From: a virus
Lineage: Duplodnaviria > Heunggongvirae > Uroviricota > Caudoviricetes
DNA: 48,428 nt
Reading direction: 5' to 3' (one strand)
Virus record (IMG/VR): IMGVR_UViG_3300028379_000400
Location: 64,001 to 112,428 of that record
A model generated the notes under the pieces. That model did no database searches. It worked only from the letters and a program-made list of their open reading frames with translations, and was not told the origin of the DNA. Positions 6,050-15,011 of the stretch are shown here, piece by piece (position 1 is the stretch's first letter; each line of letters opens with the position of its first letter). Made by a program: the position numbers and the translations under genes.

Positions 6050-6137
6050 GGAAGCGTGGCAGAGTGGCTTATTGCGCCTGGTTGCTAACCAGGTAGGTCT
6101 CCGGGCCTCGGGAGTTCGAATCCCCCCGCTTCCTCCA
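6050..6137 (+). tRNA. tRNA-Ser(GCT)
   Basis: GGAAGCG/CGCTTCC acceptor, CCTGG-TTGCTAA-CCAGG anticodon arm, long variable arm, TTCGAAT T loop, encoded CCA; U73. Confidence 0.93.
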
Positions 6138-6140
6138 TAC

Positions 6141-6230
6141 GGAGAGGTGGCAGAGCCTGGTTTATTGCAGCGGCTTCGAAACCCGTCGGATCGAAAGGTC
6201 CCGTGAGTTCAAATCTCACCCTCTCCGCCA
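6141..6230 (+). tRNA. tRNA-Ser(CGA)
   Basis: GGAGAGG/CCTCTCC acceptor, G73, long variable arm GGATC-GAAA-GGTCC, loop TTCGAAA; C31:C39 mismatch. Confidence 0.92.
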
Positions 6231-6240
6231 CACCCCTTTC

Positions 6241-6324
6241 GGGCCGGCTGGGCATGGGTGAGCCCAAGGCGCTGTAAACGCCCCGTGTTAAGCTGAGGTG
6301 GTTCAAATCCATCCCGGCCCACCA
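6241..6324 (+). tRNA. tRNA-Tyr(GTA)
   Basis: GGGCCGG/CCGGCCC acceptor, A73, GGCG-CTGTAAA-CGCC, extended variable region, CCA; C8 and an A27:C43 mismatch. Confidence 0.88.
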
Positions 6325-6390
6325 ATATCGAGGACTGTCGTGACCGACGAAAGCTTCACCTTACGACTTACGCGATTGCTGCTCAGCAGT

Positions 6391-6466
6391 GCGCGCGTAG
6401 GCAAGCGGTAAAGTCGGCGGGCTCAAACCCCGTTCTTCGTCAGTTCGAATCTGACCGCGCGCACCA
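6391..6466 (+). tRNA. tRNA-Leu(CAA) with a short (5-nt) variable loop
   Basis: GCGCGCG/CGCGCGC acceptor, A73, GCGGG-CTCAAAC-CCCGT, variable loop TCTTC, GTCAG-TTCGAAT-CTGAC; 76 nt. Confidence 0.85.
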
Positions 6467-6469
6467 TTT

Positions 6470-6545
6470 GCCCGATTGGCGGAATGGCAGACGCAGGCGT
6501 CTCAGAAACGTAAAGCTCCCGGTTCGAGTCCGGGATCGGGCACCA
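6470..6545 (+). tRNA. tRNA-Leu(CAG) with a short (5-nt) variable loop
   Basis: GCCCGAT/ATCGGGC acceptor, A73, Leu-type D arm GCGGAATGGCAGACGC, loop CTCAGAA, variable loop AAGCT; 76 nt. Confidence 0.87.
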
Positions 6546-6646
6546 CCCCCCAAGGAATTCTAGCATGATCGCTCTCCGCGCGCAGTGGCAACGCCAACAG
6601 ATCACCGCCGCGTAGTAGAGCATCCCCGCTCGGCTACACGGCGTCT

Positions 6647-6721
6647 GCCGGTGTAGCTCAGTGGTAGAGCATGGGTCTCCAAAACCCAGTGTCTTCGGTT
6701 CGATCCCGAACGCCGGCGCCA
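6647..6721 (+). tRNA. tRNA-Trp(CCA)
   Basis: Canonical cloverleaf, TGGGT-CTCCAAA-ACCCA, G73, CCA. Confidence 0.95.
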
Positions 6722-6722
6722 T

Positions 6723-6797
6723 TCCCTCGTGGTGCAACGGTAGCATTCCGGGCCCTGACCCCGGCGATACAGGTTCGAATCCAAGTCGAGGGAACCA
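6723..6797 (+). tRNA. tRNA-Gln(CTG), atypical (C33, distorted T stem, A73)
   Basis: TCCCTCG/CGAGGGA acceptor, CCGGG-CCCTGAC-CCCGG, T stem ACAGG/CCAAGT with a mismatch plus bulge. Confidence 0.75.
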
Positions 6798-6800
6798 ATT

Positions 6801-7232
6801 TTGGCCGATGTGACCTGCAAGGCATGTTCACGCTGCGGCCGAGTTAAACCACTAGAGGAGTTTCGTCGGTGCAGTGCGCACGGCGACGGCCGTACCTCTG
6901 AATGCAAGGCCTGTTTTAGCGCCCGAGAGGCGGAATATTACCGCTCGACGCCTAACAGGCGCGAGGCAATCAAGAATCGCCGGCAAGCGGTTCGAGCTAC
7001 GGCCAAGCAGGTAGTGCGAGCGTATTTGCTCCTGCACCCGTGCGTTGATTGTGGCGAAACCGACTTCGAAGTGCTGGAATTTGATCACCGAGACCCGTCG
7101 TCCAAGGAAAGCGACGTCTCGAAGTTGCTCACATTCTCCGTCGAGAAAGTCATAGCGGAAATCGCAAAATGCGACGTTCGCTGCGCCAATTGCCACAGAC
7201 GCAAAACGCGTAGGCAGTTCGGCTGGGTTTGA
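6801..7232 (+). CDS. HNH endonuclease with N-terminal zinc finger (putative homing endonuclease)
   Basis: CSRC...CKAC zinc finger; CVDCGETDFEVLEFDHRDP...KCDVRCANCHRRKT HNH core; TTG start 3 nt after tRNA-Gln. Confidence 0.85.
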   Translation: MADVTCKACSRCGRVKPLEEFRRCSAHGDGRTSECKACFSAREAEYYRSTPNRREAIKNRRQAVRATAKQVVRAYLLLHPCVDCGETDFEVLEFDHRDPSSKESDVSKLLTFSVEKVIAEIAKCDVRCANCHRRKTRRQFGWV

Positions 7233-7243
7233 GGAGTTTTCTG

Positions 7244-7477
7244 ATGAGCGCAGCGCTACCGCGACCATCTTCCCTGCGTGTGGGGAAGTCTGGTCATCCT
7301 GCCGCACTCGGAATGCGGAGTATCGCGGGTTCGAATCCCGCCACGCAGACCATTTTTGAACCAATGCACATGGCGCCTGCAGATGCCGACTTTATCGGCA
7401 TGCGCAACCGCCTCGAGGCCGATATGTACCGCGTATTCGGCGTGCCGACACCCATGCTGCGAACCCCGACACGGTAG
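7244..7477 (+). CDS. Small ORF running in frame through tRNA-Pro; portal-like C-terminal motif (alternative start at 7364)
   Basis: GAGGAG RBS at 7231-7236; C-terminus DADFIGMRNRLEADMYRVFGVPTPML. Confidence 0.4.
   Translation: MSAALPRPSSLRVGKSGHPAALGMRSIAGSNPATQTIFEPMHMAPADADFIGMRNRLEADMYRVFGVPTPMLRTPTR
7274..7352 (+). tRNA. tRNA-Pro(CGG)
   Basis: CTGCGTG/CACGCAG acceptor, A73, CCGCA-CTCGGAA-TGCGG, GCGGG-TTCGAAT-CCCGC, CCA. Confidence 0.92.
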
Positions 7478-7483
7478 GCATTC

Positions 7484-7559
7484 GCCGCCGTAGCTCAGTT
7501 GGAAGAGCGCCGTCTTCGTAATTCGGATGCCAGGGGTTCGATTCCTCTCGGCGGCACCA
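7484..7559 (+). tRNA. tRNA-Thr(CGT) with a weakened anticodon stem
   Basis: GCCGCCG/CGGCGGC acceptor, loop TTCGTAA; U30:U40 and C31:U39 mismatches. Confidence 0.88.
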
Positions 7560-7645
7560 AAGAATACCCAGAGGCGGCCGTCACGTACGCGCCGCCGGCG
7601 ACCGGGAAGTGTAGTGGCGACGCCCGCTGTCCCGGTCGCTCGTAT

Positions 7646-7723
7646 TGCGGGCAGGCGAGCAAGGTGCACGCGGCGGCCTGTTAAGCCGAGTTTAGGCTGG
7701 TTCGATCCCAGCTCCCGCAGCCA
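7646..7723 (+). tRNA. tRNA-Asn(GTT), atypical (A8, C7:U66, G27:A43)
   Basis: TGCGGGC/TCCCGCA acceptor, G73, CGGC-CTGTTAA-GCCG, GCTGG-TTCGATC-CCAGC, CCA. Confidence 0.82.
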
Positions 7724-7739
7724 TTTTCAGAGGCAATGC

Positions 7740-8045
7740 ATGTCTCAATCTGGCCGTACAACCGCGATGATCCGCGCGTTGCCAGATGCCGGCGCTATTA
7801 TCGTGGTGCCGAGCAAGACCAGCGTCCAGCCGATCAGCGATATGATCCTCGAGCTGCGCGGTCCGGACTTCGACAAGCGCTGTGATGTCGTCGCGGTCAC
7901 CGACCATGACACGGCTCAACAGCTTCTCGGCGCCAAGCGGTGGATCGCCTTCGATCACACCTTTCGCGTCATGACACCGCGGGCATTGGCGGATGAGGTC
8001 TACGCATTGGCGCGGATCTCCAATTACCAGTTCCCGCTCCAGTAA
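7740..8045 (+). CDS. Small protein with a degenerate P-loop-like N-terminus (SQSGRTTAMI)
   Basis: GAGG RBS; fills the spacer between tRNA-Asn and tRNA-Ala exactly. Confidence 0.55.
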   Translation: MSQSGRTTAMIRALPDAGAIIVVPSKTSVQPISDMILELRGPDFDKRCDVVAVTDHDTAQQLLGAKRWIAFDHTFRVMTPRALADEVYALARISNYQFPLQ

Positions 8046-8122
8046 GGGCTCATAGCTCAGTTTGGGAGAGCACCCGCCCTGCAAGCGGGATGTCGTCGGT
8101 TCGATGCCGGCTGGGTCCACCA
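8046..8122 (+). tRNA. tRNA-Ala(TGC) with C33
   Basis: G3:U70 alanine identity pair, A73, CCCGC-CCTGCAA-GCGGG, CCA. Confidence 0.9.
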
Positions 8123-8136
8123 TTTTCGGAGGCGTT

Positions 8137-8388
8137 ATGCAGCGTCGCAACTTCATTGGCGGTGTCGCCGGCGTAGCCGCGGCCGCCTCAATCACCAAAG
8201 CGGTAGCTGAGACTGCGCCCGCATCGGCTGACATGCTCCGCATCCGCATGTCAGGACCGCAGATGGTCATTGCCGACAGCCAGGGCCGGACGGTGACCGA
8301 TATCAGCAACGGCAAGCTGCGCTTTGTGTCGCCTGAGCGCGGTTTCGTGCACGGCTTTCCAGAAGTCCGCGTTCTCGAGCGCGGATAG
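8137..8388 (+). CDS. Small protein with a twin-arginine (Tat) signal peptide
   Basis: GGAGG RBS; MQRRNFIGGVAGVAAAASITKAVA|E gives RRxF, an h-region and an AxA site. Confidence 0.65.
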   Translation: MQRRNFIGGVAGVAAAASITKAVAETAPASADMLRIRMSGPQMVIADSQGRTVTDISNGKLRFVSPERGFVHGFPEVRVLERG

Positions 8389-8389
8389 C

Positions 8390-8464
8390 GTGCCGGGAGC
8401 CAGGTGGGACGGCGGCGGATTGCAAACCCGCAAGGAGCGAGTTCGATTCTCGCCCAGCACTCCA
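8390..8464 (+). tRNA. tRNA-Cys(GCA), atypical (G8, C5:A68, A31:C39)
   Basis: U73 cysteine discriminator, loop TTGCAAA, GCGAG-TTCGATT-CTCGC, CCA. Confidence 0.85.
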
Positions 8465-8469
8465 GTTTC

Positions 8470-8539
8470 GCGGCCTCGTTGGGCGGATACAGGCCCACCA
8501 AGCCAAGTGTCGACGGTTCAACTCCGTTAGGCCGCTCCA
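8470..8539 (+). tRNA. tRNA-Gly-like RNA, anticodon ACC, truncated D arm (70 nt)
   Basis: Perfect GCGGCCT/AGGCCGC acceptor with C2:G71 and U73, intact T arm and CCA; only 3 bp of anticodon stem (GGC/GCC) around loop CCACCAA; the segment between acceptor and anticodon arm is about 6 nt short. Confidence 0.7.
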
Positions 8540-8589
8540 AATCAGCGTCGGCCGGCCTCTGCTTGCAAGCTCCGGCGCTTAGTCACTGA

Positions 8590-8666
8590 TGCGGGATAGA
8601 GCAGCCCGGTAGCTCGTCTGGTTCATACCCAGAAGGTCGGCGGTTCGAATCCGCCTCCCGCTACCA
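8590..8666 (+). tRNA. Initiator-type tRNA-fMet(CAT)
   Basis: U1:U72 mismatch, A11:U24 pair, fMet-type D arm GAGCAGCCCGGTAGCTCG; anticodon stem TCTGG/CCAGA. Confidence 0.88.
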
Positions 8667-8670
8667 GTGA

Positions 8671-8746
8671 TGACGCTTAGCTCAGTCGGTAGAGCGATCG
8701 GCTGATAACCGATAGGCCCCACGTTCGAGCCGTGGAGCGTCAACCA
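8671..8746 (+). tRNA. tRNA-Ile(GAT)
   Basis: TGACGCT/AGCGTCA acceptor, ATCGG-CTGATAA-CCGAT, CCACG-TTCGAGC-CGTGG, A73, CCA. Confidence 0.93.
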
Positions 8747-10004: not shown

Positions 10005-10357
10005 TGCCGATGAAGGCCGGCCGCATCTGCTCTTGCGGCCACCAGGTCGCGAGCAATGCGAAGTGCGCCTGTCAGCTTGCCCGCGAGGCGGCTCGGCAGT
10101 CATCCAGCGATCGCGGCTACAACGCGAAATGGCAGCGTGAAAGCGCGGCGTTTCTAGCCCTACCCAGCAACCAGTTCTGCGCCTGCGGCTGCGGCCGTCC
10201 TGCGGACATGGTCGACCACATCGTCGCCCACAAGGGCAACATGAAGCTCTTCTGGGACAAGAAGAATTGGCAGCCGATGAACCGGCGCTGCAACTCCCGA
10301 AAGGCCGCCAAGTATGAGGGCGGCTTCGGCAATCCACGCCGAGAAAGTGATCTCTGA
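10004..10357 (+). CDS. Terminase-associated HNH endonuclease (HK97 gp74-like)
   Basis: RGYNAKW...CACGC...VDHIVAHKG...FWDKKNWQPM..RCNSRK; immediately upstream of terS. Confidence 0.9.
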   Translation: MPMKAGRICSCGHQVASNAKCACQLAREAARQSSSDRGYNAKWQRESAAFLALPSNQFCACGCGRPADMVDHIVAHKGNMKLFWDKKNWQPMNRRCNSRKAAKYEGGFGNPRRESDL

Positions 10358-10770
10358 TGCGAGGCGGAAAGCCAACCACCCTTCGGGTAATTCAGGGCGG
10401 TATCGTGGACGCAGTTGAGCCGCCGAAGGGCCTGCACGAGGACGCCCACAACGACTGGTACATCGTCACCAAGGATTTGGCCGATCGCCAGCTATTGACC
10501 GACGCCATGCTCGGCGTCGTCGAGATGTATTGCGTGGCGCTGTGGACGGTTCGGATCTGCCAGAAGGCGATCCAAGATCACGGGCTTTTCGTGAAAGGCG
10601 CCGGCGGCGCGCTGAAGACAAATCCAGCGTCGACCAACCTCCAGAAGGCGCAAGATACCGTGTCACGCATGAGCGTTGAGCTCGGTTTGACGCCATCCTC
10701 CCGCGCTCGTCGCGGGTTGGGCGGCCCGGCGCCGAGCGCCGAAAGCGAAGCCGACGCACAGGGCGTTTGA
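10357..10770 (+). CDS. terS: Terminase small subunit (P27 family)
   Basis: MRGGKP N-terminus, KTNPA...ELGLTPSSRAR C-terminus; expected position. Confidence 0.92.
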   Translation: MRGGKPTTLRVIQGGIVDAVEPPKGLHEDAHNDWYIVTKDLADRQLLTDAMLGVVEMYCVALWTVRICQKAIQDHGLFVKGAGGALKTNPASTNLQKAQDTVSRMSVELGLTPSSRARRGLGGPAPSAESEADAQGV

Positions 10771-12480
10771 TTGTCATCGACATATCCGTCGTGGATCTTC
10801 GACGACAGCCCTATTGATGACCCGCTAGGCGAAGGCCAGCGCGCGGTCGATTGGTTCAATTTCCTGCGCCACCCGGCGTCGACGCATCCCGAGAAGCGGC
10901 TGGGTCTCCCGCACTTCTGGGAGCGGATCATTCGGCGCACCTACGGGCCGCGCATGCAGAATGGCCGCCGCAAGGTGCGTCAGGTCTTCATCCTGATGCC
11001 GCGTGGCGCCCGCAAGACGACTTACATCGGCGGCGCGATCGGTCTCTACCATACGATCGGCCGCCCAAAACGTCCTAACGGTTCTGTGCTTCTCGGCGCA
11101 GGTTCCGCCGATCAGGCCGAATTGGCGCTCAATGAAGCCATCGGCATGGTCAAGGCCACGCCGGGGCTGATTTATCCCGACGGCTCCAAGCCGGACAAGG
11201 TCCGCATCCGCGGCGATTATCTGCAACATATCGAGGCCGGCACCAAGCTCGAGGTGATGTCGGCCGACGGCGACAACTCGCACGGCAAGACGCCGTCGGT
11301 ATCGATCTTCGACGAGCTGCACGTCTACAAAAACCGCAAGCTCTGGCGCGCCATGCGTACCGGCCTGCTGAAGATCCCGGATGGCTTGTCGATCGTCACG
11401 ACGACAGCGGGCCGCGGCCAATCGGGCCTGGCATGGGACGAATATCAATACGCTCGAAAGGTGGCGCTTGGCGAAGTCGTCAACGACTCGTACCTCCCGG
11501 TCCTTTTTGAACCCCCGGCGGGCGCCGATTGGGAAGATCCCCATGTCTGGGAACTCGTCAACCCCGGTATGGCCGAAGGATTCCCAGACGTCGAAGCGTT
11601 CGCGCTCGAGGCGCAAACGGTCCGCGACAAGCCAGCCGATCGAGACGACTTCAAGCAATACAACCTGAATTTCTGGCTCGCGCAGTCCCTGTCGCCTTTC
11701 GTCGACATGGAAATCTACGACGAGGGCAAAGAGGCGGTTGACCTCGAGTCGCACGAGACATTCCGCGACCCCTGCTGGGTTGCCATCGACCTTGGCCTCA
11801 ATCAGGACCTTTGCGCCATCGTGGCGTGCTGGCCGGACGGGGAGGGCGGTTACGACGTCTGGGCATGGTTCTTCTGCCCCGAGGACAACCTCGAAAAGCG
11901 CGCCGACCTCGACAAGTTCAACTACCCGGAGTGGGCCAAGAAGGGCTTCATCACTCCAACGCCCGGCAATGTGACCGACTACACGAAGGTCCAGGAATTC
12001 CTTGAAGAGCTCAACGGACGATTCAACGTCCAAGAGTTCGCATTCGACCCCAAGCTCGCCAGTCAGATGATGACGCAGATGAGCGAGAAGGGCCTGCCGG
12101 TCTTCGGCATGCAGCAGGGTTGGATCACGATGGCGCCGGCCATCAAGGAGCTCGAGCGCGCCATCATCTCTCGGCGCCTCCATCACGGCGGCCAGCCGGT
12201 GCTTCGCTGGAACTTCGAGAACGTCAGCGTCAAGACGGACGAAGCCGGCAACATGACGTTTCACAAGGGCCGCAGCCGCGAGCGTATCGACGGCGCGCAG
12301 GCCACTGCCATGGCGGTCGGTCGGGCATTCCTCGGCGAGCTTCTTGAGAAGGCCCAGAAGTCGTTCTGGCAGGAGAAGGACGTCGATATCGACGACCTCC
12401 TCGAAGACTCGCCGGCGGAGGAGGGTGACGAACCGTCCGAGCTTGATGCCGAAATCCGCGCCATGCTGGAGGACGATTAA
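10771..12480 (+). CDS. terL: Terminase large subunit
   Basis: Walker A variant MPRGARKTT, Walker B IFDELH, TTAG coupling motif, nuclease AIDLG...D and RIDGAQA. Confidence 0.96.
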   Translation: MSSTYPSWIFDDSPIDDPLGEGQRAVDWFNFLRHPASTHPEKRLGLPHFWERIIRRTYGPRMQNGRRKVRQVFILMPRGARKTTYIGGAIGLYHTIGRPKRPNGSVLLGAGSADQAELALNEAIGMVKATPGLIYPDGSKPDKVRIRGDYLQHIEAGTKLEVMSADGDNSHGKTPSVSIFDELHVYKNRKLWRAMRTGLLKIPDGLSIVTTTAGRGQSGLAWDEYQYARKVALGEVVNDSYLPVLFEPPAGADWEDPHVWELVNPGMAEGFPDVEAFALEAQTVRDKPADRDDFKQYNLNFWLAQSLSPFVDMEIYDEGKEAVDLESHETFRDPCWVAIDLGLNQDLCAIVACWPDGEGGYDVWAWFFCPEDNLEKRADLDKFNYPEWAKKGFITPTPGNVTDYTKVQEFLEELNGRFNVQEFAFDPKLASQMMTQMSEKGLPVFGMQQGWITMAPAIKELERAIISRRLHHGGQPVLRWNFENVSVKTDEAGNMTFHKGRSRERIDGAQATAMAVGRAFLGELLEKAQKSFWQEKDVDIDDLLEDSPAEEGDEPSELDAEIRAMLEDD

Positions 12481-13892
12481 TGGGTCTCCGCGATACGCTT
12501 GCGCGTTGGATTGGCGGCAGCGGTTACAACAATCAGGTCGAGTTCTCTGACGATCTGCTGCTTGCCCTGCAAAACGGCGGCCGCATGTCGGCCACCGGCC
12601 AGAACATCACTTGGCAGACCGCGCTCCGCGTTTCGACCGTGCTGCGTTGCAGCGCGATTATTGCCGAAGGCATCTGCTCGATTCCGTGGAAGCTCTACCG
12701 CAAAGATGGTGAGCGCAAGGTCGAAGCGATCGACCATCCGCTATGGGACCTGATCAAGTATCGGCCCAACGAGTGGCAGACCAGTTTCGAATTCCGCGAG
12801 ACGATCGGCTTCCATCTCGCCCTCTGCGGCAACGCCTATATTTGGCTCAACCGCGTCGGCAAGAAGATTGTCGAGATGGTGCCGTTCGAGCCCAACATGG
12901 TCTCGGTCTATCGGCACACCGACTGGACGCTAACGTACTACCTGTCGTTCCCGGACGGCTCCAAATTCCAGCTTCCGCAGGAAGACGTTTGGCACATCAA
13001 GAGCCACTCGTGGAACAGCTATAAGGGCCTCGACGTCCTGTCGCTGGCCCGGGATTCAATCGGCCTTTCCCTCGCGATCGAGGAAGGTCAGGCCAAGCTG
13101 CAGAAAGAGGGTGTCCGCCCCTCCGGCATCCTCACCGTCGACCAGGTGCTGGACGCCGAGCAGTTCAAGAAGTTCCGGAAGCTCGTCGACACGCAATATG
13201 CCGGCCGCGTCAACGCCGGCAAGCCGATGATCTTGGACAAGACGACGACGTGGGAGCAAACCGCTCTCTCGAGCGTCGATAGCCAAACCATCGAGACTCG
13301 AGGCTTCCAGGTCGAAGACGTCGCCCGCCAGATGGGCGTGCTGCCGATCATGCTCGGTCACTCCGGCGATAAGTCGGTGACCTACGCGTCTTCCGAGCAG
13401 ATGTTTATCGCCCACCACATCTTCACGACCCGTGTGTGGCAGCGCCGGATCACCGAGAGCGCCGACGTCCACCTGCTGACAAAGGCCGAACGCAAGGCCG
13501 GGTTCTACAACGGATTCGTCGATACCGAGCTGCTGCGCGGCGACACTCAGGCCCGCGGCGAATTCTACAAGCTGCTGTGGATGATCGGCGCCGTCACCGG
13601 CAACGAAATCCGCCGCATGGAGGACTGGGACGACATCGACGGTCTCGATCGTCCGTGGGCGCCGCTCAATGCGGCACCGATCGGCGTCGATGGCATGCCA
13701 ATGGTCAGCGACTCGCAGGCCGCGGCCGGCAACGCCGTCCTCTCGCTTCTGCGCGGGCTCGATCCCGCCAACCTGCCAACAGCCGATGAACTGCCGAAGA
13801 TGATTGCACAGGCGTTCGTCAAGAGCAGCCCGATGGCCCAGCAAATGCTGCTGGCCCATCTGCGCGACATGGGCCCCTCAGAGGCCGACTAG
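12480..13892 (+). CDS. HK97-family portal protein
   Basis: RPNEWQTSFEF, GNAY, PSGIL, IETRGFQVEDVARQMGV, TGNEIRRMED. Confidence 0.96.
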   Translation: MGLRDTLARWIGGSGYNNQVEFSDDLLLALQNGGRMSATGQNITWQTALRVSTVLRCSAIIAEGICSIPWKLYRKDGERKVEAIDHPLWDLIKYRPNEWQTSFEFRETIGFHLALCGNAYIWLNRVGKKIVEMVPFEPNMVSVYRHTDWTLTYYLSFPDGSKFQLPQEDVWHIKSHSWNSYKGLDVLSLARDSIGLSLAIEEGQAKLQKEGVRPSGILTVDQVLDAEQFKKFRKLVDTQYAGRVNAGKPMILDKTTTWEQTALSSVDSQTIETRGFQVEDVARQMGVLPIMLGHSGDKSVTYASSEQMFIAHHIFTTRVWQRRITESADVHLLTKAERKAGFYNGFVDTELLRGDTQARGEFYKLLWMIGAVTGNEIRRMEDWDDIDGLDRPWAPLNAAPIGVDGMPMVSDSQAAAGNAVLSLLRGLDPANLPTADELPKMIAQAFVKSSPMAQQMLLAHLRDMGPSEAD

Positions 13893-13901
13893 GAGCCCTT
13901 C

Positions 13902-15011
13902 ATGAAGAAGAAAGTCGTGAACGCGGCGCTTGCGTCGCGCGTCAACGCTATTTGCGCGCGGCATGCCAAGCTCGCGCCGAACGCCAACGTCGCCAGCTCG
14001 GAACGCCGTAGCTGGTACAATTTCGGCAAGAAGAACGCCGCGACGGATAGCACCGACCTCTTCATCTACGACGAGATCAGCTCCTGGTGGGGCATCAGTG
14101 CCAACGACTTCGTGGGCGATCTGCAGGCCGTCGATACCAAGGCGCTCAACCTCTACATCAACAGCCCGGGCGGCTCGGTGTTCGAGGGTTTCGCCATCTA
14201 CTCAGCGCTTGTGCGTTGGGCGACGCAGAACAAAGCGACGATCACGGTCATCGTCGACGGCTGGGCGGCGAGCATTGCCTCCGTGATCGCTATGGCCGGC
14301 GATACGATTAAGATCAGCGCGCTGGCCAGCTTCATGGTCCACCAGCCATGGGGCGGGGTCGTCGGCACAGCCGATGACATGCGTGCCGAGGCCGAGGTTC
14401 TCGACGAGATCAGCGCGACGCTGGTCGAGATCTATCAGGCCCGCACCGATGGCGATGCCGCCCAGATCGAAGCCTGGATGAACGCCGAGACCTGGTTCAA
14501 GGGTCAGCAGGCCGTCGATGCCGGCTTTGCCGACGAAGTGATCGCCCTGAAGGGCAAACCGGACACCGGCGAGGAAGTTCCCAGCACCGGCGATGACGAC
14601 GGTGACGAGCAGGATAGCGCCCGCCTGGCAGCGTCCCGCGACGTCGAATACTTCGCCACGATTTTCAAGAATCTGCCTGACGAGATCCGCGCCCAGCTCG
14701 GCGCATCCGCCAGCACCAATTCCTCGAAGACTGCGCCCACGGCCGATGCCGTGAAGACGCCGCGTCAGTTCGAGGACTTCCTTCGCGCGAATGGCTTCAG
14801 CAGCAACGCTGCCAAGTCGATCGCGTCCAATGGTTTCAAGTCGAAGACCGAAGCGCGGGAAGCGCCGGCCGTCGAGCCTGAAAAGCCCACCACTACGGAT
14901 CTCCGGGATGGAGCCGAGGAACGGGAACAAGCCGCCGCAGCAATCCGGACCCTGGCGAACGCCACGGCCATCCGCACCGCCGCAGCGAACCTGCTCAAAC
15001 GCTCCAAATAG
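13902..15011 (+). CDS. ClpP-like (S14) head maturation protease with C-terminal extension
   Basis: INSPGGSVFEG, DGWAASIASVIAMAG, FMVHQPW, ETWF. Confidence 0.95.
   Translation: MKKKVVNAALASRVNAICARHAKLAPNANVASSERRSWYNFGKKNAATDSTDLFIYDEISSWWGISANDFVGDLQAVDTKALNLYINSPGGSVFEGFAIYSALVRWATQNKATITVIVDGWAASIASVIAMAGDTIKISALASFMVHQPWGGVVGTADDMRAEAEVLDEISATLVEIYQARTDGDAAQIEAWMNAETWFKGQQAVDAGFADEVIALKGKPDTGEEVPSTGDDDGDEQDSARLAASRDVEYFATIFKNLPDEIRAQLGASASTNSSKTAPTADAVKTPRQFEDFLRANGFSSNAAKSIASNGFKSKTEAREAPAVEPEKPTTTDLRDGAEEREQAAAAIRTLANATAIRTAAANLLKRSK

What the first reader, a model, noticed from the sequence alone, without database searches (positions are those of the whole stretch)
6391..6545. Two tandem leucine tRNAs lacking the long variable arm
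Seen: both 76-nt genes have Leu anticodons (CAA, CAG), A73 and class-II-style D arms with a 3-bp stem, but only 5-nt variable loops. Known: bacterial tRNA-Leu is class II with a long variable arm, and E. coli LeuRS depends mainly on A73 and the D/T tertiary core. Inference: streamlined Leu tRNAs that may evade V-arm-reading enzymes. Alternatively they may be charged with another amino acid, which would mistranslate UUG/CUG codons.
Basis: partly seen in the sequence, partly recalled or inferred. Interest (0 to 1): 0.7.

Follow-up and report, generated by a model that had tools for sequence, protein, structure and literature searches.

The report
Short-armed leucine tRNAs in a phage
This phage carries two real leucine tRNA genes that lack the long extra arm found on nearly all bacterial leucine tRNAs, and the same shortened design is common in phage and mobile tRNA gene arrays, probably because the leucine-charging enzyme does not need that arm.

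Summary
Window 6391-6466 and 6470-6545 are two tandem 76-nt tRNAs with anticodons CAA and CAG. Both have encoded CCA, A73, a 3-bp D stem with an unpaired 13:22, and a 5-nt variable loop.

They are not isolated. Mesorhizobium phage Cp1R7A-A1 has the same CAA+CAG short pair, and Mycobacterium phage EniyanLRS has two short tRNA-Leu genes. Both records annotate them as tRNA-Leu without comment. Short Leu tRNAs also occur in at least 24 IMG/VR contigs and in long tRNA arrays of many bacterial phyla.

In 31 such arrays, 87 of 94 Leu tRNAs are short, while all 51 Ser and all 22 Tyr tRNAs keep the long arm. Across 113 unique short Leu tRNAs, the known LeuRS identity elements are conserved and the stems covary strongly.

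Alphaproteobacterial chromosomes, the likely host class, almost never carry this form: 1 of 667 pattern matches.

The most likely reading is genuine leucine acceptors charged by host LeuRS. Evasion of a defence nuclease is plausible but untested, and mischarging is unlikely.

Type I tRNALeu is already known in Streptomyces coelicolor (Fan 2019) and in animal mitochondria. This scan has also noted short-arm Leu tRNAs before in other phages.

The parts
6391..6466 (+). Type I tRNA-Leu(CAA), 76 nt with encoded CCA. It has U8, A9, a D arm GGCAAGCGGTAAAGTC (3-bp stem, A13.A22), A14, G15:C48, a 5-nt variable loop TCTTC and A73.
   Evidence: ARAGORN; Rfam 57.7 bits. Its D arm belongs to a subfamily shared with the annotated tRNA-Leu(caa) of Mycobacterium phage EniyanLRS. 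Its nearest whole-molecule neighbour is a type I Leu(TAA) from an acidobacterial tRNA array.
6467..6469 (+). 3-nt spacer (TTT) between the two tRNA genes.
   Evidence: Read directly from the sequence. The tight spacing implies co-transcription and RNase P/3' processing.
6470..6545 (+). Type I tRNA-Leu(CAG), 76 nt with encoded CCA. It has U8, G9, a D arm GCGGAATGGCAGACGC (3-bp stem, G13.A22), A14, A15:U48, a 5-nt variable loop AAGCT, A73, and A37 instead of G37.
   Evidence: ARAGORN; Rfam 54.3 bits. The ten nearest D-region neighbours among 719 reference tRNAs (type I Leu excluded) are all long-arm tRNALeu. Orthologues occur in Cp1R7A-A1, L017 and L026.
6050..8746 (+). The phage tRNA array that holds the pair. 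ARAGORN tRNAs: Ser x2, Tyr, Leu x2, Trp, Gln, Pro, Thr, Asn, Ala, Cys, Met, Ile. The array lies upstream of the terminase small subunit (10357-10770), TerL (10771-12480), portal (12480-13892) and a ClpP-type protease (13902-15011).

Best explanation
Both genes encode functional leucine-accepting tRNAs of type I architecture, meaning no long variable arm. After processing from the phage tRNA array transcript they are most likely charged by the host's bacterial-type LeuRS. That enzyme reads A73, U8-A14, the 15:48 Levitt pair, G18G19/A20a and the D/T elbow, not the anticodon or the variable arm. The charged tRNAs then decode UUG and CUG, about 42% of the phage's Leu codons. They belong to a widespread lineage, or recurrent form, of short-armed tRNALeu found in phage arrays and horizontally mobile long tRNA arrays. 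The arm can be lost in Leu because LeuRS tolerates the loss. It is retained in Ser and Tyr because their synthetases need it. Shown here: the structure, its conservation, covariation, retention of the identity elements, and rarity in host chromosomes. Inferred: charging with leucine and use in translation.
For: - **Real tRNAs.** Both score far above the Rfam threshold.
- **Same pair in a cultured phage.** Mesorhizobium phage Cp1R7A-A1 has the same tandem CAA+CAG short pair, with compensatory stem changes.
- **Identity elements kept.** In 113 unique short Leu tRNAs: A73 in 111, U8 in 110, A14 in 107, A15:U48 in 109, and 13:22 unpaired in nearly all. The four-feature signature occurs in 76% of type I Leu (before correcting ARAGORN off-by-one calls) and 84% of type II Leu. 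It occurs in 0-3% of each of the 17 other isotypes except Ala (18%).
- **Covariation.** 98.2% of cells are paired, against 60.7% in shuffles and 37-44% in slid controls. 19 of 20 pairs show double changes.
- **Leu-CAG ancestry.** Its D region is nearest to long-arm tRNALeu in 10 of 10 neighbours.
- **Leu-CAA ancestry.** Its D arm matches the annotated tRNA-Leu(caa) of phage EniyanLRS, and the Levitt pair covaries (A15:U48 there, G15:C48 here).
- **Internal control.** In 31 arrays, 87 of 94 Leu tRNAs are short, while 51 of 51 Ser and 22 of 22 Tyr are long. In the viral loci, 9 of 9 Tyr and 13 of 14 Ser are long.
- **No phage synthetase.** No class Ia synthetase is found in the phage record.
- **Literature.** E. 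coli tRNALeu variants without the variable arm stay active (PMC9976931). Removing the arm from Aquifex tRNALeu mainly lowers affinity (PMC2377443). S. coelicolor and human mitochondrial LeuRS charge a natural type I tRNALeu(CAA) (PMC6614811).
Against: - No aminoacylation or expression data exist for these tRNAs.
- E. coli LeuRS and one Streptomyces LeuRS did not charge the S. coelicolor type I tRNALeu(CAA) (PMC6614811). Acceptance by an alphaproteobacterial LeuRS is therefore not guaranteed.
- Alphaproteobacterial chromosomes almost never carry type I tRNALeu, so the host enzyme has no known native substrate of this kind.
- Leu-CAA has G15:C48 instead of the E. coli determinant A15:U48, and its D region does not classify with long-arm tRNALeu.
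- Leu-CAG has A37 where host CUN decoders have G37.
- My sample of short Leu tRNAs was gathered with patterns that fix part of the D stem, the anticodon and the T arm.
Confidence: 0.7

Rival explanations
1. The tRNAs are the same leucine acceptors, but the loss of the arm (perhaps together with A37) is an adaptive anti-defence trait. It would make the phage's Leu decoders resistant to a host nuclease or toxin that recognises or cuts the long variable arm of class II tRNAs or of tRNALeu, so translation continues after host tRNALeu is destroyed. This does not exclude the main explanation.
For: [quoted passage not shown]
- Phage tRNAs are known to escape anticodon nucleases by sequence changes (PMC10264068).
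- Human SLFN11 prefers type II tRNAs (citing Li 2018).
- Short Leu tRNAs are concentrated in phages and mobile arrays and are nearly absent from host chromosomes.
- All six Leu anticodons are affected in the arrays.
Against: - None of the papers I found describes a bacterial nuclease that targets the tRNALeu variable arm.
- The bacterial Schlafens characterised so far cut the anticodon arm or the T loop, not type II tRNAs specifically.
- The phage carries no RtcB or CCA-adding enzyme that would point to a tRNA-damage arms race.
- Relaxed constraint alone predicts the same Leu-only pattern.
Confidence: 0.2
2. One or both tRNAs are charged with an amino acid other than leucine, or are ambiguously charged, so that UUG or CUG is mistranslated or recoded during infection.
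For: - Leu-CAA lacks A15:U48, and its D region resembles those of several type I isotypes.
- E. coli LeuRS rejects one natural type I tRNALeu.
Against: - CAA and CAG match no anticodon-reading synthetase's determinant set. There is no G3:U70 for AlaRS and no long arm for SerRS. C2-G71, an E. coli antideterminant against SerRS, is present. These points follow from the identity rules in PMC9976931 and from the sequence.
- A73 and the Leu-type D arm are conserved across the family.
- CUG and UUG make up 42% of Leu codons in the phage's own ORFs, so missense would be costly.
Confidence: 0.05
3. They are decaying or non-translational tRNA-like genes, such as decoys, processing signals or pseudogenes, that are not used for decoding.
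For: - Phage arrays do contain drifted or non-decoding tRNA-like genes; earlier notes of this scan describe some.
- The Leu-CAG anticodon stem begins with a G27.A43 mismatch.
Against: - Both cloverleaves are intact: the acceptor stems are perfect, the T loops are canonical, U33 is present and the anticodon loops have 7 nt.
- The pair is conserved with compensatory changes in a distant phage.
- Family-wide covariation includes the anticodon stem.
Confidence: 0.05

Closest known systems
Streptomyces coelicolor type I tRNALeu(CAA) (Fan et al. 2019, PMC6614811)
   Same: It is a bacterial-world tRNALeu with a 5-nt variable loop, a CAA anticodon, A73 and a Leu-type D arm, and it is charged by a bacterial-type LeuRS. 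My genome scan recovered the same kind of solo chromosomal gene in Frankiales, Mycobacteriales and Spongiactinospora.
   Different: That one is a single chromosomal housekeeping isoacceptor in Actinomycetota, whose LeuRS has a permissive leucine-specific domain. The window's tRNAs are phage-borne, come as a CAA+CAG pair, and sit in a phage of a probable alphaproteobacterial host whose chromosomes lack type I tRNALeu.
Annotated short tRNA-Leu genes of cultured phages: Mesorhizobium phage Cp1R7A-A1 (MT188704) and Mycobacterium phage EniyanLRS (KY385381, Wildcat-like)
   Same: Cp1R7A-A1 has the same tandem Leu(CAA) and Leu(CAG) genes of 77 and 76 nt, with A73 and CCA. EniyanLRS has Leu(tag) of 75 nt and Leu(caa) of 74 nt, and its CAA D arm resembles the window's.
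   Different: Sequence identity is only about 75%. Those records simply label the genes tRNA-Leu, and I found no paper discussing their architecture. Cp1R7A-A1 also keeps an 83-nt Leu(GAG) with an 11-nt mini arm, which the window phage lacks.
Animal mitochondrial tRNALeu
   Same: It is a type I tRNALeu whose identity rests on A73 and A14, and it is charged by a bacterial-type LeuRS without a long arm (PMC9976931).
   Different: It has an organellar, reduced and often floppy structure. The phage tRNAs keep a fully canonical elbow with G18G19 and T54-C56.
Phage T5 tRNATyr with an altered variable loop that resists Retron-Eco7/Septu PtuAB
   Same: It is a phage-encoded class II-family tRNA whose variable region differs from the host's (PMC13096335).
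   Different: In that case the arm is changed rather than deleted, the nuclease is known and resistance was demonstrated. Here no nuclease is known and nothing has been tested.
Long horizontally transferred tRNA arrays (L-arrays; PMC8421152, PMC4758250)
   Same: These are dense arrays of supernumerary tRNAs spread by horizontal transfer and related to phage arrays. The short Leu tRNAs I found in bacterial genomes sit in such arrays.
   Different: The two papers that I searched by keyword do not mention the architecture of the Leu tRNAs. The window's array has only 14-15 genes and lies inside a phage.

Membership tests
tRNA (Rfam RF00005) | Cloverleaf sequence and structure scoring above the curated gathering threshold | tested here: met
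   57.7 and 54.3 bits against a gathering score of 29. ARAGORN cloverleaves agree.
Bacterial tRNALeu (leucine identity set for bacterial LeuRS) | Leu anticodon (NAG or YAA) | tested here: met
   CAA and CAG at positions 34-36 in 7-nt loops with U33.
Bacterial tRNALeu (leucine identity set for bacterial LeuRS) | Discriminator A73 | tested here: met
   Both tRNAs have A73. 111 of 113 family members have it.
Bacterial tRNALeu (leucine identity set for bacterial LeuRS) | U8-A14, G18G19/A20a and a T loop able to form the elbow (U54-A58, U55, C56) | tested here: met
   Both have U8, A14, GG followed by Y-A, and a TTCGA T loop.
Bacterial tRNALeu (leucine identity set for bacterial LeuRS) | A15:U48 Levitt pair (an E. 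coli determinant) | tested here: inconclusive
   Leu-CAG has A15:U48. Leu-CAA has G15:C48, one of only 2 such cases among 113. Its closest named relative has A15:U48.
Bacterial tRNALeu (leucine identity set for bacterial LeuRS) | Class II architecture: variable arm longer than 10 nt | tested here: not met
   Both variable loops are 5 nt. The long arm is a structural hallmark but not an identity element for E. coli LeuRS.
Bacterial tRNALeu (leucine identity set for bacterial LeuRS) | Aminoacylation with leucine by LeuRS | not testable with these tools
   This needs biochemistry.
Type I tRNALeu (S. coelicolor tRNALeu(CAA) kind) | Leu anticodon combined with a 4-5-nt variable loop and a Leu-type 3-bp D stem | tested here: met
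Type I tRNALeu (S. coelicolor tRNALeu(CAA) kind) | A cognate LeuRS shown to accept type I substrates | not testable with these tools
   The host is unknown beyond a probable placement in Hyphomicrobiales. E. coli LeuRS rejected the Streptomyces type I tRNA.
Defence-evading phage tRNAs (T5 tRNATyr / tRNALys kind) | A host nuclease cleaves the host isoacceptor while the phage copy resists | not testable with these tools
   The literature I searched describes no nuclease for the tRNALeu variable arm.

The most novel reading that the evidence does not exclude
Loss of the variable arm, together with the switch from G37 to A37 in CUN decoders, defines a 'stealth' tRNALeu design. On this reading it has been selected in phage arrays and mobile tRNA arrays across many bacterial phyla because it escapes an as yet unidentified host nuclease, toxin or modification-dependent checkpoint acting on class II tRNALeu, while staying chargeable by any bacterial LeuRS.
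Probability: 0.2. Interest if true: 0.75.

Novelty: new member of a known kind. Interest (0 to 1): 0.5.

Why it matters
Reviews still state that tRNALeu carries a long arm everywhere except in animal mitochondria (PMC9976931). The single studied bacterial exception, in Streptomyces, was treated as a rarity.

This window, together with the survey it prompted, shows that short-armed tRNALeu is the usual form in many phage and mobile tRNA arrays. It covers all six Leu anticodons, while Ser and Tyr never lose the arm. That is a natural, replicated experiment suggesting the arm is dispensable for bacterial LeuRS in vivo. It also raises the question of why cells keep the arm.

Cp1R7A-A1 on Mesorhizobium is a culturable system in which charging, decoding and a possible anti-defence role can be tested. 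For annotation, the result means that Leu-anticodon tRNAs of 74-78 nt in phages should not be dismissed as pseudogenes.

Tried and rejected
- **Spacing error.** My first IMG/VR pattern for Leu-CAG had one N too many and found nothing. The corrected pattern found 20 contigs.
- **Relatives through TerL.** megablast of the array against named phages found nothing. The search for related loci with TerL found nothing in genome contigs or viral contigs.
- **Number of arm losses.** A maximum-likelihood tree of 139 Leu tRNAs (67 columns) needs 19 changes between types. However, well-supported branches force only 1, so one origin and many origins cannot be told apart.
- **Window Leu-CAA as a truncation of the 83-nt Leu-CAA of L017/L026.** The anticodon arms match, but that region was fixed by my search pattern, so I dropped the idea.
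- **Promoter scan.** No sigma-70-like site was found near the array, which is uninformative for this host type.
- **Phage-encoded enzymes.** LeuRS, RtcB and CCA-adding enzyme were not found in the record, which is 88% complete.
- **Chance hits.** About half of the genome contigs pattern hits (Pseudoalteromonas and others) are chance matches with no tRNA, and I discarded them.

Full report
**What is there**

The window is the last 48 kb of a 112-kb IMG/VR virus record classed as a provirus and estimated 88% complete. GC content is about 62%.

ARAGORN finds 14 tRNA genes on the + strand between 6050 and 8746. They lie upstream of a terminase small subunit, TerL, a portal and a ClpP-type protease. 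TerL has no close relative among named phages (32% identity or less). Homologues at 50-55% identity carry names from Devosiaceae, Gellertiella, Rhizobium and Stappia, so the host is probably a member of the Hyphomicrobiales (Alphaproteobacteria).

The two genes of the finding are tRNA-Leu(CAA) at 6391-6466 and tRNA-Leu(CAG) at 6470-6545. Rfam's tRNA model scores them 57.7 and 54.3 bits against a gathering score of 29. Each has:
- a perfect 7-bp acceptor stem and U8;
- a 3-bp D stem with an unpaired 13:22;
- G18G19, a 7-nt anticodon loop with U33 and a canonical T arm;
- a 5-nt variable loop, A73 and encoded CCA.

The two Ser tRNAs and the Tyr tRNA in the same array keep long arms.

**Are they leucine tRNAs by descent?**

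For Leu-CAG the answer is clearly yes. I compared its D region (positions 8-26) with 719 other tRNAs from the fetched loci, leaving out all short-arm Leu tRNAs. The ten nearest are all long-arm tRNALeu, although those make up only 26 of the 719.

Leu-CAA is less obvious. Its D region does not classify with long-arm tRNALeu. Its nearest whole-molecule neighbour is a short Leu(TAA) from an acidobacterial array, with the same acceptor stem and the same U8 A9. Its best match among named phages is the annotated 74-nt tRNA-Leu(caa) of Mycobacterium phage EniyanLRS. That tRNA has nearly the same D arm, and its A15:U48 Levitt pair corresponds to G15:C48 in the window, a compensated tertiary pair.

**How widespread is the design?**

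- Mesorhizobium phage Cp1R7A-A1 has the same tandem Leu(CAA) and Leu(CAG) genes of 77 and 76 nt. They are followed by an 83-nt Leu(GAG) with an 11-nt mini arm.
- Two pattern scans of IMG/VR returned 24 viral contigs with Leu tRNAs of 72-79 nt, in several sequence families.
- A capped scan of one genome per bacterial species returned 120 loci. About half are chance matches without a tRNA.
- The real hits fall into two groups. One group is solo chromosomal Leu(CAA) genes in Actinomycetota, the kind studied in Streptomyces coelicolor. The other is short Leu tRNAs inside long tRNA arrays (10-34 genes per 8 kb) in Acidobacteriota, Chloroflexota, Myxococcota, Planctomycetota, Clostridia, Meiothermus and others.

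In the 31 arrays, 87 of 94 Leu tRNAs are 72-79 nt long. All 51 Ser tRNAs (83-92 nt) and all 22 Tyr tRNAs (81-89 nt) are long. Anticodons that my pattern did not select (TAA, GAG, AAG, TAG) split 34 short, 5 intermediate and 5 long.

**Is it the host norm?**

No. I used a pattern that accepts both short and long forms of a Leu-type D arm, a Leu anticodon and a T arm. It matched 667 times in 325 of 401 alphaproteobacterial genomes, and all 150 listed matches have long arms. The same pattern restricted to short arms matched once. That single match lies in a tandem trio of short Leu tRNAs.

Two of the 401 genomes (G241, G042) are flagged unpublished. They contribute 7 of the 667 matches, and the conclusion does not depend on them.

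**Evidence of function**

In 113 unique short Leu tRNAs with a 5-nt variable loop:
- A73 occurs in 111, U8 in 110, A14 in 107 and A15:U48 in 109;
- 13:22 is unpaired in nearly all;
- every stem position is 90-100% paired, mostly with four to six pair types.

The combination A73 + A14 + A15:U48 + unpaired 13:22 occurs in 76% of type I Leu (an underestimate, since it precedes correction of ARAGORN off-by-one calls) and in 84% of type II Leu. It occurs in 0-3% of each of the 17 other isotypes except Ala (18%).

On a MAFFT alignment of 48 diverse members, 98.2% of cells are paired, against 60.7% in shuffles and 37-44% with slid partners. 19 of 20 pairs show changes on both sides.

One caveat applies. 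The sample was gathered with patterns that fix part of the D stem, the anticodon and the T arm. The conserved features listed above mostly lie outside those patterns, apart from A22.

**Mechanism**

The phage record has no class Ia synthetase, so a host enzyme must do the charging.

- For E. coli LeuRS, established work names A73, A14, A15:U48, G18G19, A20a and the D/T elbow as determinants. It excludes the anticodon and the long arm, and variants lacking the arm stay active (PMC9976931).
- Removing the arm from Aquifex tRNALeu mainly lowers affinity (PMC2377443).
- For tRNASer, the size of the arm is the main identity element. That explains why only Leu loses the arm.
- S. coelicolor and human mitochondrial LeuRS charge a natural type I tRNALeu(CAA). 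E. coli LeuRS did not (PMC6614811). Chargeability by the unknown host's enzyme is therefore likely but not certain.
- By elimination, CAA and CAG fit no anticodon-reading synthetase, and there is no G3:U70 and no long arm. LeuRS is the only plausible charging enzyme.
- CUG and UUG make up 32% and 10% of Leu codons in the phage's long ORFs.

**Why was the arm lost?**

There are two non-exclusive readings. The first is relaxed constraint combined with deletion in fast-evolving mobile tRNAs. The second is selection to escape a host factor that reads the arm.

The second has a real precedent: PtuAB of Retron-Eco7 and Septu cuts the variable loop of tRNATyr, and T5 tRNATyr resists (PMC13096335). 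I found no equivalent for tRNALeu. The phage also carries no RtcB or CCA-adding enzyme.

A tree could not resolve how often the arm was lost.

**Novelty**

Type I tRNALeu is known in animal mitochondria and in S. coelicolor. Short tRNA-Leu genes are annotated without comment in cultured phages. Ten literature look-ups found no paper describing them in phages or mobile arrays.

Earlier notes of this scan had already seen short-arm Leu tRNAs in other phages. The window's pair is therefore a new member of a known kind. The systematic, Leu-specific pattern across mobile arrays is the more interesting result.

Noticed in passing
window 6506 (position 37 of tRNA-Leu(CAG), 6470-6545): This CUG decoder has A37, whereas the host-class CUN-decoding tRNALeu listed show G37, the TrmD m1G37 site. 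Among short Leu(NAG) tRNAs, 64 of 70 have A37, against 8 of 17 long-arm ones from the same loci. This is a second systematic departure that accompanies arm loss.
   Followed up: partly
L001:5826-5913; also L017 and L026: ARAGORN-89-nt tRNA-Lys(CTT/TTT) genes with long variable regions in Cp1R7A-A1 and two related IMG/VR contigs. The arm is gained in Lys in the same arrays where Leu loses it.
   Followed up: no
bacterial array loci among L027-L146: Eleven 'tRNA-Ile' calls of 90-92 nt, and a few long Trp, Glu, Asn and Phe calls, occur in the arrays.
   Followed up: no
L001:3135-3217; 83-nt Leu(GAG) and Leu(CAA) in L017/L026: These Leu tRNAs have an 11-nt mini variable arm (3-bp stem plus loop), shorter than the roughly 13-17 nt seen in alphaproteobacterial tRNALeu. 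They may be intermediates on the way to the 5-nt loop.
   Followed up: partly
L152:1483-1740 (G328:C43): This is the only short-arm Leu hit in 401 alphaproteobacterial genomes. It is a tandem trio, Leu(TAA), Leu(CAG) and Leu(GAG), of 75-77 nt. Its surroundings were not examined.
   Followed up: no
L003:2696-3047: A tmRNA gene with tag peptide ANAVANDNDVALPLQAAA sits inside a viral tRNA array, next to short Leu tRNAs.
   Followed up: no
window 6241-6324 and 7646-7723: The Tyr and Asn tRNAs called by ARAGORN do not reach Rfam's tRNA gathering score. Tyr hits only the tRNA-Sec model at 31.8 bits and has C8 instead of U8. Asn scores 24.5 bits.
   Followed up: no
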